Shown here: piece after piece, positions 5,615 through 57,324 of the stretch
How positions within the stretch are numbered: the first letter of the stretch is position 1
Layout: the number at the start of each line of letters is the position of its first letter
Source of the DNA: Octopus vulgaris
Taxonomy: Eukaryota
Direction: 5' to 3'
Length of the DNA: 64,000 nt
NCBI GenBank assembly: GCA_951406725.2
Contig: OX597820.1
Location: forward strand, 125,488,001-125,552,000
Notes under the pieces: model-generated
Database searches by the model: none
The model's input: the letters and a program-made list of their open reading frames with translations, nothing else
Told to the model about the DNA's origin: nothing
Position numbers and translations under genes: made by a program

Positions 5615-5845
5615 TATTTCTTTACCACCCACAAGGGGCTAAACAAAGAGGGGACAAAGAAGGACAGACAAACGGATTGAGTCGATTACATCGACCCCAG
5701 CGCGTAACTGGTACTTAATTATCGACCCTGAAAGGATGAAGGACAAAGTCGACTTCGGCGGAATTTGAACTCAGAACGTAACGGCAGACGAAATACGGCT
5801 ACGCATTTCGCCCGGCGTGCTAACGATTCTGCCAAGTCACCGCCT
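5615..5845 (-). mobile_element. tRNA-derived SINE family A (Nin-domain-like core)
   Basis: Reverse complement of GGCGG..TGGCAGAA(box A)..GAGTTCAAATTCC(box B)GCCGAGGTCGACTTTGCCTTTCATCCTTTCGGGGTCGATAAATTAAGTACCAG..CCCCTTGTGGGTAGTAAAGAAATA, with a few substitutions; many copies in the window. Confidence 0.9.
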
Positions 5846-15958: not shown

Positions 15959-16177
15959 AGGCAGAAGCGTTAGCGCGCTGGGCGAAATGCTTAGCGGCAT
16001 TTCGTCTGTCGTTACGTTCTGAGTTCAAATTCCGCCGAGGTCGACTTTGCCTTTCATCCTTTAGGGGTCGATAAATTAAGTACCAGTTACGCACTGGGGT
16101 TGATGTAATCGACTTAATCCCTTTGTCTGTCCTTGTTTGTCCCCTCTATGTTTAGCCCCTTGTGGGTAGTAAAGAAA

Positions 16178-16240: not shown

Positions 16241-16426
16241 ATACAGGTGTAATAATCGTTCACACAGCGACAATGGTCTTTTCAATCCGTGTAACGTACC
16301 AGTTAAAACAATATTTTACACTTACTTTCATGGATGGTAAATCAGGGCACATTCTCAAATAATTTTCACTTCATTTTTTAATCATACAAAGTGTTCCTAC
16401 AATCCTTGGTATTATAACCGCCTGAA

Positions 16427-16655
16427 GGCGGCGAGCTGGCAAAACGTTAGCACGACGGGCGAAATGCGTAGCCGTATTTCGCCTGTCGCTACGTTCTGAG
16501 TTCAAATTCCGCCGAGGTCGACTTTGCCTTTCATCCTTTCGGGGTCGATAAATTAAGTACCAGTTACGCACTGGGGTCGATATAATCGACTTAAACCGTT
16601 TGTCTGTCCTTGTTTGTCTTCTCTCTGTTTAGCCCCTTGTGGGTAGTAAAGAAAT
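16427..16655 (+). mobile_element. SINE family A, full length
   Basis: GGCGGCGAGCTGGC..GTTCTGAGTTCAAATTCC..CCCCTTGTGGGTAGTAAAGAAAT. Confidence 0.92.
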
Positions 16656-17049
16656 GGGTGTTAAAACCGCATTAAGATATCACCTTTGTTTTCAATTTCA
16701 ATGAGCAAATCTGTATATTTTCTGAGCTTGTCGATTTCTTTTACCGAGATATTATGATGAAAATTGTCGTTCAATAAACAAACTTTATTGCTCAGATATT
16801 TCACAACTATACCCGGTACATTACCTTTGATGGTTCAGGCTGCATGTACTAGACATTTCGAAAGAATCGTGAGGTTTACTTCTCGGGGTTTACGCTTGTA
16901 ACACTCGTCGACTATTTTGGGTTTATAATGCCGACATATTAACAAGTGTAGATATTGGCCAAATCTGTCATATCTTGATTTATTCTACACTACCGCAAAC
17001 ATTAACATTCACAGATTAGTAGGTCCATTCTTCTAATCTTATCCAAGCT

Positions 17050-20744: not shown

Positions 20745-20748
<4 letters not shown>

Positions 20749-21089
20749 GTATATAATTAAGTCATGCAATATTTTTCAAATTCAATCATAATTGTCAAAA
20801 ATGAACGAGATAAGATGTTTAAAAAGTTGTAAGAAATTTATTAATGTATACAACCGTTTCGTACATAGATATACATTCATTTTAGAATCTTGCAAATATC
20901 ACATTACTCATCAGTGCAGAGAAAAGATAATAGGAACTTAGAAATAGAGTAGAGAAGTTGGATATCTGAGTTTCATTCTTATCTGTTCCTTTCTAGTGAT
21001 AGTGATAGTGATGGGGGTCATGTCAATTATTAAACCACAACTAACGGTTGAACAGTTTGGGGATGATATAAATATAAAGATATCGACAA

Positions 21090-21127
<38 letters not shown>

Positions 21128-21240
21128 GTAGGTAAGTATATATTTGCTAATAAAATCTCCATATATGCAGCATCGGGTGATTTAGTTGGAGAAATGTCCA
21201 ATGAGAAAACCTTACCTAATGTAAATTAAATCTAACCGTT
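20745..21240 (-). mobile_element. HHR-containing non-autonomous element; inverted homologue of 23700-24145
   Basis: About 450 bp alignable by eye to the reverse complement of 23700-24145. HHR motif at 20845-20918 (TGCA-CTGATGA-GTA...TAC-GAAAC-ggtt-GTA-TACA). 3' end abuts (TA)n. Confidence 0.75.
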
Positions 21241-23699: not shown

Positions 23700-24145
23700 A
23701 ATGTATTTATTATTTTTAACGTTTTCTCATTGGACATTGCTCTAACTAACTCACCCTATGCTACCTATATGGACATTTAATTAGGAAATCTATACTAATC
23801 CATACATTGAGAGTTATCGATAACTCTGTATTTATGTCATCCCCCAATCATTCATCTGTTAGTTGTGGTGTAATAATTGACATGACTCCCATCACATAGA
23901 TAGGGACAGATAAACAAGAAACTCATAGATCCAACGCCTTTGTTCTTTTTAAAGTTCATATTATTTTTTTCTCTGCACTGATGAGTACTATGATATTTGC
24001 AAAGTTCTAAAATGAATATATATCTACGAAACGATTGTATGTATCTATAAACTTTTCACAACATTTTAACATCTTATCTCCTCCATTTTTGACAAATATG
24101 ATTGGATTTGTAGAACTTCATTCTATAAATTAGTTATATACTTAA
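23700..24145 (+). mobile_element. HHR-containing non-autonomous element (same family as 20745-21240; related to ~5990-6100)
   Basis: Inverted homology with 20745-21240; contains the HHR at 23974-24043. Confidence 0.75.
23974..24043 (+). ncRNA. Type I hammerhead ribozyme-like motif with canonical core
   Basis: TGCA-CTGATGA-GTA(37 nt)TAC-GAAAC-gatt-GTA-TGTA. Stem I is 4 bp (one GU); GUA cleavage triplet. Confidence 0.72.
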
Positions 24146-29743: not shown

Positions 29744-30546
29744 CAGAATGAGATAACTAATCCTAGGCAGTGAGGAATTTTCAGGACATTTATAATGAAA
29801 TAGTCTTACAGCCGTTTCTGGAATATTATGGATATCTCTCCATCGGAGACGGAGTGAGGAAATATTTGAGATCGAATTATTGTGGAAAAGGAGGAGATAG
29901 GTAATATAGAGAGAAATAAAAGAATGAACGTAGAAATAAGATATATAAAGATATTGTTGTTGCCATTCCATTACTCGAGGAAAATGGTATGTAAATGTGG
30001 TAAACAAATTTCCTGTACATGGTATGTAAGTTCCAGTCGCAGTTCATATTTATTCATTTCAAAGTATGACGCCGTGGAATCCATGTTGCTCGTTGGAAAG
30101 GGTTTGAATTTGATCTGTCATTTCTTCCTAATTATACTCTGTCTCCTCCCACCATCTATCCACAAAAACTGCCAATACATTCTCAAATTTTCGTTCATAT
30201 CGCATAACACTTTCGAACGAGTAACTTTGATTCCACGGTTCTATACTTTGAAATGACTAAACATGAAATGCTATTGGAAATTACCACTTCTATACACCAT
30301 TTTCTTCGGATAATGGAACAGCAACTATAATATCTTTATATATCTTATTTCTACTTTCATTCTCTTATTTCTCTCTGTATTCCTTATCCCCTCCTTTTCC
30401 ACAATATTTCGAACTGAAATATTTTCTCTCACCCTATCTGATGAAGGGATATACGTAATACTCCAGTGAAACAGCCGTAAAAGTATCTCATTATAAATGT
30501 CCTGAAAATTCCTTACAGCCCTAGATTAGTTACCTCATTCTTTCTA

Positions 30547-41813: not shown

Positions 41814-41872
<59 letters not shown>

Positions 41873-41900
41873 AGGTTTGGAGATGATGTACAGGTATCAT

Positions 41901-42329
41901 ATATTAGAAGAAATGAGGTAATCAGAAGATCGGATGGTTCATATTTACAGATATTTATTTATATATTACATTTTTTACATAAATATATCATATCATTCAG
42001 ATCATAGCGCTTTCTCCCATTCTAGTGGGGTTTTCAAATCAAAATAATTTTTGCGGGGAATTTTAATCATTTTATAGAGTTTCGTAGTGGTGGAGAGGAA
42101 CAAGACAGCACAATACTTCACCCTCTTGTGCTGTCTTGTTCCTCTCCACCACTACGAAACTCTATAAAATGATTAAAATTCCCCGCAAAGGAATTATTTT
42201 GATTTGAAAACCCCACTAGAATGGGAGAAAGCGCTAATGATCTGAATGATATGATATATATGTAAAAATGTAATATATAAATAAATATCTGTAAATATGA
42301 ACCATCCGATCTTCTGATTACCTCATTTC

Positions 42330-42338
<9 letters not shown>
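41901..42338. mobile_element. Near-perfect palindromic fold-back element (213-bp arms, 12-nt spacer) within a (TA)n region
   Basis: 41901-42113 is the reverse complement of 42126-42338 apart from a few indels; spacer TACTTCACCCTC. Each arm has an HHR-like motif. Confidence 0.92.
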
Positions 42339-42393
<55 letters not shown>

Positions 42394-43137
42394 TATACAT
42401 GTGCATATTATGCACGTGATATACACACACACATATATGAATATACATAATGATGCAAGTTTAACAAACATTCAGATGTACAATATAAAGGTAACGTTTA
42501 CCAAATATGTACATTTTTAATGCTTTTGAAACTCGTAGAAAAACATTAAAGTGTCGTAATGCTTCGACCGCCCCTATTCAATCAGAGAGATAAAGACAGG
42601 CAGAATTTAAAGAGTCTGAGAGGCAGATATGTGTGTGTGTCTGTGTGTGCGTATGCATATGCATTATATATATATGCATATACATTATATATATGTACAT
42701 ATATATATTTGCATATATATGCTATATATATGGGAGTATGTGTGTGTGTGCGTGCGAATTGTGCGTATGGGTGTGTGTGTGCGTGCGTTTCTTGATCCTG
42801 GTGATAATGAAATAATGTCAAAGATCTGTATTATAGTATATTCTATTAGTAAAACTATACATTTGTTTCGTAATATTAATCCTGAAGGTAATGAAATAAA
42901 TCATTTTATTATTAACATTCTAAAAATGATACTTTGTGTCTTTCGCATTATATAATTGTATTTTATATGTGCTGGAAATATTTAATCGCATAAAATATCG
43001 TATTTGTATGCAGTAAAGAAACAATTTTTCAGATATATAATATGTATTTGCATAACAGCAGTTGTGATGAGAGATTTAAACGTCTGAGACTGATGAAGTT
43101 TTAGCTATTGCAAATTGGAAACTAAATATATACATAC

Positions 43138-43228
<91 letters not shown>

Positions 43229-43231
43229 TGT

Positions 43232-43341
<110 letters not shown>

Positions 43342-43483
43342 AAATAGAAAGATGAATTTTCTTGTTACAGATTATTCAAAAGTTTAACCGATACCTGGGT
43401 AGCAAAAATCACAGCAGAAAAAAGCACGGTTGGAGATAAGACCATTTGGTGTTGCAACCGTGCGTTGGTGCGGATAATTGAAG

Positions 43484-43775
43484 TTTAATATTATTAGTGA
43501 ATGGAAGAAATGGAGTTGAACGAAGATTGTACAGAGTTCAGCCATGGGCTCTTAAGGAACGTCCTCGTTCGAATTGCGTTGCTGCGCCTCTGTTTTGTTT
43601 TGTTCTGTCAACGGAATTCCTGTTTTTTTCCTGAAGAGAAAGCCACAATATGGTACCCTTATTTAATCAGAATTTGGAAATTTGTGGCCTTTGAAACATG
43701 TGTAGAATGTAATAAAAGGAATTCTGTACAGTCTTCGTTCAACTCCATTTCTTCCATTCACTAATAATATTAAAA
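43484..43775 (+). mobile_element. HHR-containing element with a ~55-bp inverted copy of its 3' end at its 5' side
   Basis: 43484-43539 is the reverse complement of 43719-43774 (2 mismatches); ends at (TA)n. Confidence 0.82.
43613..43724 (+). ncRNA. Type I hammerhead ribozyme candidate with fully canonical core
   Basis: TTC-CTGAAGA(43631-43637)-GAAAGCCACAA...TTGTGGCCTTT-GAAAC-atgt-GTA(43702-43704)-GAA. Distal stem I extension GAATTCCT/AGGAATTC. Confidence 0.78.
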
Positions 43776-44563
43776 TTATATATATATATATATAGATATA
43801 TATACATACGTACACACACACACACACACACGCATATATATATATATATATATATGCACACACACACACGTGTGTGTATGTGAATTTTTCCTTCTGTATA
43901 AAACCTATTGTGCATTTTGTTGGAGTATACGAGACTTCAATACAAATCGAGATTTTCGTATTCTTTTAATTTTATTATATATATATCCTCAACGTTCGAA
44001 TTCACTTCCTGTAGGAATGAGTAAACTTTATTTGAACTAAGCTAGAAGAAACTTCACCAAAGTTTTCTCTTATTTACTATATAGTGGTATATGCTAACAT
44101 TTTCGCTTATAGATATTATATGTTTTTGAGTATATATTGTGGTATCACGAACCCTTTATTCAATTTATATATGCCCTCCGAATATTCACAACCGCAACAG
44201 TAACTGACAAGTACGAAAACTGAAAGTAAAAATCCCTTGGGGACATTCTCCTATCTATCTACACCAATACAGGATGTGTCTTCATTCCAGCCTCGGGCAT
44301 AAACACGCTTGATACTTAACGCTAAATACACTTGTTTATCCAACAGAGTTTCAATGATTATTATGCGTGATAGGTTGCTAACATAACGACGGGGTAATTT
44401 ATAACCTACGATGTATCACATTTTTATCATTTCCTATTATATTCAGAAATGTATTTGTTGCTTGATACGTCTTCGTCTAATTACTTGGCACGAGTTATGT
44501 AATTCACATCAACTTACGTATTCATCCCGTCAGTCAGTCTGTCTTTCATTCTCTCCGATCTTT

Positions 44564-47500: not shown

Positions 47501-48739
47501 GGCAGTTTTCTTTCAGTAATCATAGAATCGACAGCAATATTGAGGTATAATTGAGGTTAAGCAAACAATAGTGTAGAGATCAGAGAATAATAAATATGGA
47601 TTTATTTGTCCATTATAGTATTTCCTAGTATTTGTTGGCTGATAAAAAATAGCGAAATAGTGTGAGCCGTTGAGAAACCATCAATTATTTCAGTCCATAC
47701 ATTGAAACTTACCCACTAAATCTTATATCAATATTTCCATTTAATAAAAGCTAATGTAATATTTAATAATAACTAACGAAATATTTGAAGCATTGTCCGT
47801 CAATGTTTTTCCTAACACATTCCTATCCCACCATAAATTCATAAAGTCTCATAGGACATTACAAAAGTTATACGTAAGATGAGTTACGGTCCAAGACTTA
47901 TACTTATATCAATGAAAACCGTTCTGAATATATCTTTCTGGTTAAAGACTCCGGGATGAAAATTGAGGATAATTTATTTGTAAATTTTTAGCTTGTTAAT
48001 GGACCGCTTAGATGTTCGCTTGATCGCTTCATCGCTCGAGCTGCATTTTATGTTACAGATATTTACCCTCTGTGATTGAAAGACATGCAAATACATCGCT
48101 TGCTCGAACGTAACACGTTCCTACAACGATATGATGGGTATAATATTAACATATTAGATATGGAAGTGACTATGCAGAAGGGATATTAGATTTATAATAC
48201 AGCAACGAAACCAAAAAATACTGTCGAAAATAAATGCTAAAATGTTATATAGCACAATTATTTTGAAATTGCAGCCAATAAAAAATAATAATAACAATAA
48301 GCTTAGAGATAACCATTATTGTATGTCGGAATTTTTTCAACGGTGTATTACATAGAAGTGTGTACATGATCGTAAAAGTAGAAAATATTATTGGAGAAAT
48401 AGGTGAGAAATTGGATAGATGGTGTCCAAAATATGTAAATCAATGTTTTGTATGCATATATAATATACTATAAGTGTAAGTGAAATCCTAGTAAACTATA
48501 TTACTATCTACTTCTGTAACAGACTAATGAAATAAGAAAAACGGCGCACGCACAATAGCAATTCGTCCATTATATTTGCGTAAACATTCCCTGAAAACAG
48601 AAAATATAATTATTCCCACGTATATAGAAGATTTAGAGAAGAACAGAAAATTGTGAGAATTGTAATATGTCGAATATTATACTTTGCAATATTACTTTCT
48701 GCTGCGGCAAAGCTGGCATGGTATCTATCACGCCGATAA

Positions 48740-49360
48740 GGCGGTGAGCTGGCAGAAACGTTAGCACGACGGGCGAAATACTTAGCGGTATTTCGTCTGC
48801 CGTTACGTTCTGAGTTCAAATTCCGCTGGGGTCGACTTTGCCTTTCATCCTTTCGGGGTCGATAAATCAAGTACCAGTTATGCACTAAGGTTGATATAAT
48901 CGATTTAACCCGTCTGTCTGTCCTTGTTTGTCCTCCCTGTGTTTAGCCCCTTGTGGGTAGTAAAGAAATAGGTATGTAGCACACCGGCTAATAGCATTTT
49001 CCCGGGTTTTACGTTCTGAGTTCAAAAGATGTCGAGGTTGAATGTGCTTTTCATTCCTTTGGAGTTGATAAAATAAGTACGAGCTGGATATTGGGACCGA
49101 TGTAATTGACTTACTCCTAATAGAAATTGCTAGCCTTGTGTCAAAACTTGGAAATCAATATGACTTCAGATAAAGTTGTCATGATAGCATGGGTAGCAAC
49201 ATTTTTTCAGACTTTACGTTCTGAGTTCAAATTCTGCTAATGTCGATTTTTTCCTTTCATCCATTCGGAATTAATAAATTGATACCAGTTGAGGTTTTGT
49301 GGATGTAATCCACAAGCCCCACTTCCACACTGAATTTCAGGCCTCGTGCCTAGAGTGGGA
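48740..49360 (+). mobile_element. Tandem cluster of SINE family A: one full copy (48740-48970) and two older partial copies
   Basis: ttacgttctgagttcaaa recurs at ~48803, ~49009 and ~49214, each followed by the tttcat(t)cc..taaa core. Confidence 0.85.
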
Positions 49361-56261: not shown

Positions 56262-56829
56262 TTGGGGGAAGGGCCAGTCAATATGATCGACTCCAGTACG
56301 CAACTGGTACTTAATTTATCGACTCTGAAAGGATGAAAGGCAAAGTCTACCTCGGCGGAATTTGAACTCAGAACGTAAAGGCAGACGAAATACCGCTAAG
56401 CATTTCGCCCGTCATGGTAATGTTTCTTATTTCTTTATTGCGCAGGAGGGGCTAAACATAGTGGGGACAAACAAGGACATACAATGGGATGAAGTCGATT
56501 ATGTCGATTCCAGTGCGTAACTGGTACTTAATTTATCGATCCCGAAATGATGAAAGGCAAAATCGACCTCGGGGGATTTGAACAGCAAACGAAATACCTA
56601 TTTCGTTACTACCCACAAGGAGCTAAACACAGAGAGAAACAACAAGGACAGACAAACGGATTAAGTCGATTATATCGACACCAGTGCGTAACTGGTACTT
56701 ATTTAATCGACCCCGAAAGGACGAAAGGCAAAGTCGACCTCGGCGGAATTTGAACTCAGAACGTAGCGGCAAACGAAATACCGCTAAACATTTCTCCCTG
56801 TGTGCTAACGTATCTGCCAGATTGCCGCC
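56262..56829 (-). mobile_element. Three tandem SINE family A copies (56262-56425, 56428-56597, 56599-56829)
   Basis: Three consecutive aactggtactta.tt..tcga...gaaa..aaaggcaaa..c.acctcgg cores. Confidence 0.9.
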
Positions 56830-57324
56830 TTCTATATATAAATATTGAGAAAAAAGAAGCAGTTAGATGTTTGGATAATTCTTATTAACGCTTTCATTCG
56901 TTTTTCAAACTCGTCAAGAGAAAATCAAAATCAAAATGGTAAAAAAGAGAACGTTTTGTTGCTCATTTATATGAATCGGATGCATTTTTGATTTGCTTAG
57001 AAGAGGAGAATAGTGCTTTTCTTTATCGGAAAAAAGGAGAGTGAGAGAGATAAAAACAAAAGGGGAATATACAGAGAGAGAGAGAGAGAGAGAAGTTTCA
57101 GGACAATGAAGAATGGGAAATAATAACGGATGGGGACAAAGTAGATAGATAAATAGATTGATTGATTGATTGATTGATAGATAAATAGATACATACATAC
57201 ATGCATACATACATACATACATACATAGAGAGAGAGGTTTCTTTTCAATTTCATGCGATGAGTTCACTGAACTTTATTTCCAAAGAATTTTTCATTTTTC
57301 TTTCTCGTTTCTCTTTTCTTTCAA

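What the first reader, a model, noticed from the sequence alone, without database searches (positions are those of the whole stretch)
43484..43775. Best intact hammerhead candidate, in a classic inverted-partial-end structure
All core nucleotides are canonical (CUGAAGA, GAAAC, GUA). Stem II is long (GCCACAA/TTGTGGC plus flanking pairs), stem I has an internal loop and an 8-bp distal helix, and ACAUGUGU is self-complementary with GU pairs, so it could work as a monomer or dimer. The 5' side carries an inverted copy of the last ~55 nt, as described for PLE insertions.
Basis: partly seen in the sequence, partly recalled or inferred. Interest (0 to 1): 0.75.

Follow-up and report, generated by a model that had tools for sequence, protein, structure and literature searches.

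The report
Long-armed hammerhead in Hydra-clade Penelope stub
This is the cut-short, back-to-back end of a very common Penelope-type jumping gene sitting in a TA repeat; its hammerhead ribozyme motif is intact but is predicted to cut only as a pair or with help, and the family lacks a zinc-finger motif that was thought to aim such elements at TA repeats.

Summary
The hammerhead motif is real: core 43631-43704, covarying stem II, and 6,770 genomic matches against 0 for the control pattern. It lies in the terminal repeat (pLTR) of a Hydra-clade Penelope-like retrotransposon; full-length sister copies encode an 895-aa reverse transcriptase plus GIY-YIG endonuclease. The insertion is larger than reported: 43335-43774, between two TA tracts. 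The inverted arm is 201 nt and carries the element's true 3' end, a 153-nt tail that the hammerhead-bearing arm lacks. 55 of 56 two-armed insertions pair one long end with one short end. Monomer cleavage is predicted to be poor; a dimer through the palindromic stem III is favoured. Cutting is untested, and 28 of 30 tail-selected arms read through the cut site. The design is known. Three traits differ from the published Hydra and PLE descriptions I read: stem II about twice as long, a 153-nt tail instead of 30-40, and loss of the CxCX5C linker with TA targeting kept. This scan noted the long stem II, the linker loss and the paired ends before on other DNA of this genome.

The parts
43123..43334 (.). 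(TA)n-rich target tract, left flank (left edge approximate)
   Evidence: sequence
43335..43535 (-). Inverted arm with the long 3' end; covers +19 to +219 from the predicted cut site; has no hammerhead core
43335..43487 (-). 153-nt tail between the two fixed 3' ends (+66 and +219); in full-length copies it lies in the 5' UTR and ends 47 nt before the ATG
   Evidence: 43336-43487 is identical at 8 other loci among 40 listed
43535..43535 (.). Head-to-head junction, one shared base
   Evidence: read
43535..43774 (+). 5'-truncated pLTR arm with the short 3' end (runs 4 nt past the usual end at 43770)
   Evidence: about 98% identical to its closest copies
43614..43630 (+). Stem I 5' strand: distal 43614-43621, proximal 43628-43630
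   Evidence: distal helix 78% paired across relatives
43631..43637 (+). Hammerhead core CUGAAGA
43638..43692 (+). Extended stem II, 55 nt: 11-position outer helix plus an inner helix
   Evidence: 6 of 11 pairs change on both sides
43693..43704 (+). GAAA, palindromic stem III (43696-43703) and cleavage triplet GUA; predicted cut after 43704
43705..43724 (+). Stem I 3' strand: proximal 43705-43707, distal 43717-43724
43777..43805 (.). (TA)n-rich target tract, right flank (edges approximate)
   Evidence: sequence

Best explanation
The region 43335-43774 is a recent, non-coding, two-armed insertion of a Hydra-clade Penelope-like retrotransposon in a TA tract, likely made when the element's own endonuclease nicked both DNA strands and its reverse transcriptase copied the RNA from two fixed internal start sites. 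Shown: the anatomy, the parent ORF, the two fixed ends, their one-long-one-short pairing and the TA flanks. Inferred: both nicked strands primed cDNA, one at +219 and one at +66 from the hammerhead cut site; both cDNAs stopped early and were joined head to head; the templates were mostly uncut by the ribozyme. The hammerhead is inherited pLTR sequence, predicted to cut only as a dimer through its palindromic stem III or with protein help, most likely in tandem transcripts of full-length elements rather than at this locus.
For: Parent: full-length copies read pLTR, tail, ATG, ORF; a tandem array with a 3,624-bp unit holds stop-free 895-aa ORFs. Fold: telomerase RT is the top Foldseek match (E 2.5e-9); residues 774-877 match the I-TevI GIY-YIG domain (Z 10.7, rmsd 2.5, 89 of 92 aligned). 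Ends: 55 of 56 two-armed insertions have one long and one short end, none has two alike; 54 of 54 readable arms from mixed subfamilies end at (TA)4 or more, 52 at the two sites, against 13% of background windows (2 further arms unreadable). 7 of 55 pairs have arms that share no template, which fold-back cannot make. Two internal RT start sites, cleavage of both strands and a protein-assisted, dispensable hammerhead were shown in vitro for Poseidon_Ac (PMC11167929). Stem III centre is TA, TG or CG in 6,728 of 6,770 matches and CA in 42. Modelled dimer -56.0 against -45.2 for two active monomers.
Against: No cleavage or transposition assay. The in vitro precedent is from another clade. Two inactive monomers (-57.2) are still slightly below the modelled dimer, and these energies omit tertiary contacts. 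48 of 55 pairs overlap in template, which fold-back could also give. The test of a shared source for both arms was weak: own partner strictly nearest in 6 of 21, tied in 7, another insertion nearer in 8. Stem III counts come from few ancestral changes, and the pattern fixed the core and allowed only Y-R at the centre. Loci were chosen by similarity, not at random.
Confidence: 0.85

Rival explanations
1. Same element, but the inverted arm arises by self-priming or fold-back of one cDNA or an antisense template, with the tail set by endonuclease resolution of the intermediate.
For: Proposed for PLEs in PMC3846280 and PMC8557442. Several junctions fall at short self-complementary words; 48 of 55 pairs overlap; 9 private alleles are shared by both arms in 4 of 21 insertions.
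Against: 7 of 55 pairs do not overlap. Here the inverted arm holds 153 nt that the other arm lacks and the other holds about 190 nt that the inverted arm lacks, so neither is a copy of the other.
Confidence: 0.1
2. A monomer-active ribozyme that cuts transcripts at this locus, stabilised by the long stem II and the distal helix.
For: Intact core; stem II pairs at over 0.93 probability; folding z -2.04, 6 of 200 shuffles as good.
Against: Stem III has 2 bp as a monomer; active fraction about 1e-4; G.U at 10.1/11.1; the inverted arm competes for the distal helix; metazoan PLE hammerheads cut poorly in vitro (PMC4209133).
Confidence: 0.12
3. A non-autonomous retrozyme, SINE or MITE-like fold-back element of its own.
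For: Short, non-coding, abundant, with inverted arms.
Against: 5' ends are scattered from +180 to beyond -900 and run on into the ORF in long copies; no fixed unit length.
Confidence: 0.02

Closest known systems
Hydra clade of C-terminal EN+ Penelope-like elements, including Hydra-1_Obim (Craig et al. 2021, PMC8557442; section 11, passages and supplement read)
   Same: Single RT-EN ORF, DKT motif, no CCHH, CxxC and CxH around E and N, hammerhead near the 3' end with a self-complementary stem III, (TA)n insertion, inverted truncated copy (Penelope-13_HM).
   Different: Not Hydra-1_Obim: the N-terminus and hammerhead differ by eye. No CxCX5C linker; about 130 aa of S/N-rich disordered sequence instead. 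RWL for RWK. Unit 3.6 kb against under 3 kb as a rule. Stem II region 55 nt against about 25 nt at most in the Hydra rows of File S2. Tail about 153 nt against the 30-40 bp given for PLEs.
Poseidon_Ac of the green anole (Frangieh et al. 2024, PMC11167929; parts 1-2 of 4 read)
   Same: Two fixed 3' ends that define a tail; AT-rich target; hammerhead upstream of the start sites; uncut RNA as the main template.
   Different: Other clade; its start sites lie 111-118 nt inside the ORF, here both ends lie in the 5' UTR and 153 nt apart.
Metazoan PLE hammerheads (Cervera and de la Pena 2014, PMC4209133; parts 1-2 of 4 read)
   Same: Type I topology, short palindromic helix III, longer helix II, short helix I, predicted dimer.
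   Different: Helix II longer (11 positions plus an inner helix against 7-8 bp); G10.1-C11.1 is G.U in this subfamily.
Adineta vaga Penelope families (Arkhipova et al. 2013, PMC3846280; passages read)
   Same: Inverted pLTR with a one-sided tail; asparagine-rich in-frame inserts between RT and EN.
   Different: 31-bp tail overlapping the ORF; target-site duplications visible, which TA tracts hide here.

Membership tests
Type I hammerhead ribozyme | Core C3 U4 G5 A6 N7 G8 A9, G12 A13 A14 A15.1, U16.1 H17 | tested here: met
Type I hammerhead ribozyme | Three helices around the core, open end in stem I | tested here: met
   stem II covaries (6 of 11 pairs); proximal stem I 3 bp and stem III were partly fixed by the search pattern
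Type I hammerhead ribozyme | G10.1-C11.1 pair | tested here: not met
   G.U in the window; G-C in 17 and G.U in 9 of 27 relatives; several published Hydra hammerheads also lack it
Type I hammerhead ribozyme | Loop I-loop II tertiary contact | not tested
   no 3D RNA modelling done
Type I hammerhead ribozyme | Self-cleavage after H17 | not testable with these tools
   only contigs of guessed RNA runs were available
Penelope-like elements, EN+ | Telomerase-like RT and GIY-YIG endonuclease in one ORF | tested here: met
   sister-subfamily ORF P0002; the window's own subfamily gives a 661-aa stop-free RT-EN piece
Penelope-like elements, EN+ | pLTR, tandem or inverted arrangement, one-sided tail | tested here: met
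   the tail is 153 nt, not 30-40
Penelope-like elements, EN+ | Retained spliceosomal intron | tested here: inconclusive
   no clear splice joint in contigs of 4 runs
Hydra clade | DKG changed to DKT; C-terminal EN without CCHH; CxxC and CxH beside E and N | tested here: met
   SDKT, CNLC..SEL, LVN/MVN, CPH
Hydra clade | RWK motif | tested here: inconclusive
   RWL at the aligned place; some homologs also vary
Hydra clade | CxCX5C linker motif | tested here: not met
   absent in all subfamilies read; a loose CxC pattern is present in 81 of 82 homologs that reach the EN. So this is a derived Hydra-type lineage, not a typical member
Hydra clade | (TA)n insertion | tested here: met
   54 of 54 readable arms
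Hydra clade | Placement in an RT tree with the published Hydra families | not tested
   published sequences were compared by eye only; no tree was built

The most novel reading that the evidence does not exclude
This lineage shows that the linker zinc finger is not what aims Penelope-like elements at (TA)n. Its strict one-long-one-short ends record a two-RNA, two-enzyme insertion complex in which the hammerhead's palindromic stem III is kept mainly to pair the two templates rather than to cut them.
Probability: 0.2. Interest if true: 0.65.

Novelty: new variant of a known kind. Interest (0 to 1): 0.33.

Why it matters
The stub itself is ordinary transposon debris. The family is a useful test case: it is young, has intact tandem ORFs, and keeps strict TA targeting without the linker zinc finger that PMC8557442 associates with it. 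Its two start sites lie 153 nt apart in untranslated RNA, so they can be mutated without touching the protein. Both points bear on how PLEs insert and what their hammerheads do, which that paper calls unclear. Its hammerheads escape Rfam.

Tried and rejected
Rfam at gathering score on the whole window: 0 hits; by E-value on 43300-43900: 35 hits, none a hammerhead. Pfam named neither RT nor EN for the family protein; the PDB sequence search gave one weak unrelated hit. The EN folded alone failed (pLDDT 34.5) and was not used. Naiad was my first guess from the EN piece; rejected because the EN is C-terminal. I considered that SGCRSRNEYS is a relic of the CxCX5C motif; the more distant subfamily has no cysteine there, so I do not claim it. 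A pile-up of 5' ends at the cut site was sought and not found; one locus (L091) is ambiguous. Same-source test of the arms: weak. Consensus fold of the tail: weak, -2.96 kcal/mol with no covariation gain. Expression: no RNA holder listed; contigs cannot show ends or strand. Literature searches showed no description of this family; PMC13282606 (passages) lists recently active Penelope-like families in an octopus without the words Hydra or hammerhead in its main text; its supplement, Repbase and Dfam were not seen and may hold the family. bioRxiv 10.64898/2026.07.22.740005 (passages) does not mention octopus; its supplements were not seen.

Full report
Observation. Stem II (GCCACAA/TTGTGGC), the 8-bp distal helix (43614-43621 with 43717-43724) and the self-pairing ACAUGUGU are present. 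The pair at 10.1/11.1 is G.U. Rfam finds no hammerhead. A pattern of the core matches 6,770 places in the 2.8-Gb genome and none when read backwards. The host is likely an octopus; this is inferred from the one homolog with a named organism, an Argonauta protein, and from earlier scan notes.

True extent. The window is G000:C7:125488001-125552000. A search with 43590-43776 gave 1,149 candidates; 40 were scored and matched at 96-100%. Comparison with these shows that 43335-43535 on the minus strand is the element's complete 3' end, and that the plus arm 43535-43774 stops early. The arms meet head to head at one shared base, and both outer ends touch (TA)n. The tail, 43335-43487, is 153 nt; 43336-43487 is identical at 8 other loci among 40 listed, so the subfamily is young.

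Parent element. A longer copy led into an ORF. Full-length copies read pLTR with hammerhead, tail, 47 nt, ATG. A sister subfamily forms a tandem array with a 3,624-bp unit and stop-free 895-aa ORFs. The model (mean pLDDT 80) matches telomerase RT best, and residues 774-877 match the GIY-YIG domain of I-TevI (Z 10.7, rmsd 2.5, 89 of 92 aligned). DKT, the missing CCHH, and CxxC and CxH beside E and N fit the Hydra clade as defined in PMC8557442 section 11. It is not the published Hydra-1_Obim, whose N-terminus and hammerhead differ; two motifs of this family are absent from that supplement. No tree with the published families was built.

Two fixed ends. 3' ends fall at +66 or +219 from the predicted cut. 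Among 82 insertion groups from 105 loci, 56 were two-armed and tail-out; 55 had one long and one short end, one had a long and a clipped end. Three of these are likely one duplicated event, and loci were picked by similarity. In the 30 loci picked by the tail alone, 27 had a partner arm in view and all were short. Other subfamilies show the same two ends, at about +45 to +68 and +188 to +222. 48 pairs overlap in template and 7 do not. This fits priming from both target strands at two internal start sites, as shown in vitro for Poseidon_Ac (PMC11167929). Fold-back (PMC3846280) cannot give the 7 non-overlapping pairs or this locus, where each arm holds sequence the other lacks. Overlapping arms would need two RNAs or re-use of one; my test of a shared source was weak.

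The ribozyme. In 27 distinct sequences (the window, 26 of 30 pattern-picked loci and L057; L109, L110, L120 and L126 left out), stem II has 6 of 11 pairs with changes on both sides and 89.5% of cells paired; the distal stem I helix is only 78% paired. These copies are related, so this is support and not a probability. The centre of stem III is CG in 1,838 matches, CA in 42 and, by subtraction, TA or TG in 4,890. Those two bases pair only in a dimer, but few ancestral changes lie behind the counts. For the window copy the active monomer is 6 kcal/mol above the minimum, fraction about 1e-4. A double hammerhead scores -56.0, against -45.2 for two active and -57.2 for two inactive monomers. In a plus-strand transcript of the whole insertion the inverted arm takes the 3' strand of the distal helix. 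28 of 30 tail-picked long arms read through the cut site, one of them ambiguously, so most templates were uncut. This agrees with low activity of metazoan PLE hammerheads (PMC4209133) and with the protein-assisted, dispensable ribozyme of Poseidon_Ac. No data on cleavage in vivo could be had.

Linker. Of 106 homologs, 82 reach the endonuclease and 81 of these carry a CxC linker pattern. No subfamily of this family that I read has it, down to about 55% EN identity; an S/N-rich stretch, predicted disordered, stands there. The endonuclease is under purifying selection: dN/dS is 0.10-0.15 in the 12 pairs with dS from 0.14 to 2.8, dS is saturated in 6, and 3 close pairs with dS under 0.1 give 0.25, 0.42 and 2.37. 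Yet 54 of 54 readable arms end at (TA)4 or more, against 13% of background windows. PMC8557442 ties the linker to TA targeting; this family argues that the motif is dispensable. Help in trans from another Hydra family in the genome is not excluded (L134). N-rich inserts between RT and EN are known from rotifer PLEs.

Novelty. The layout, the hammerhead in the pLTR, the one-sided tail and TA targeting are all published. Eight literature searches showed no account of this family, of a tail near 150 nt or of a Hydra lineage without the linker motif; Repbase and Dfam were not seen. Earlier notes of this scan on other DNA of the same genome report the long stem II, the missing zinc finger and the paired ends. 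I had noted all three before reading those notes; they are not independent evidence.

Verdict. A real hammerhead motif in an ordinary stub of a likely recently active Hydra-type Penelope-like family. New variant of a known kind; interest 0.33.

Noticed in passing
window 41869-42338: Another fold-back insertion between TA tracts, from a different family: about 215-nt arms, a short one-sided extension near 41869-41904 and an ACGAAAC word on each arm.
   Followed up: partly
window 30438-30479 (+): A compact hammerhead-like motif about 70 nt before a (TA)n tract, likely another PLE end.
   Followed up: no
window 20745-21214 and 23717-24145: Inverted pair, 72% alike, each with a decayed hammerhead-like core at 20914 (-) and 23978 (+).
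   Followed up: no
window 43090-43123 (+): A minimal hammerhead-like string just left of the TA tract that holds this insertion; may be an older PLE end or chance.
   Followed up: no
window 5617-5844, 15960-16177, 16425-16659, 48738-48975, 56282-56832 and others: An abundant dispersed repeat of about 230 nt, up to about 90% alike, SINE-like.
   Followed up: no
L136, L137 (G000:C1:119.511-119.530 Mb): Head-to-tail array of four hammerhead-bearing units, period 3,624-3,625 bp, 99.9% alike, with intact ORFs and an inverted 1-kb cap; an unrelated 307-aa PLE-like ORF piece lies beside it.
   Followed up: partly
tail, alignment A2: A near-palindrome TACC-NN-GGTA in the middle of the tail is kept in 12 of 13 aligned copies from several subfamilies; it could be a protein-binding site.
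   Followed up: partly
L134:2256-2620: A piece of a different Hydra-type endonuclease with cysteines before the GIY motif, so other Hydra families share this genome.
   Followed up: no
G000:C12:34.196-34.334 Mb (L003, L012, L013): Three near-identical two-armed insertions with similar flanks, likely a segmental duplication; they are not independent events in my counts.
   Followed up: no
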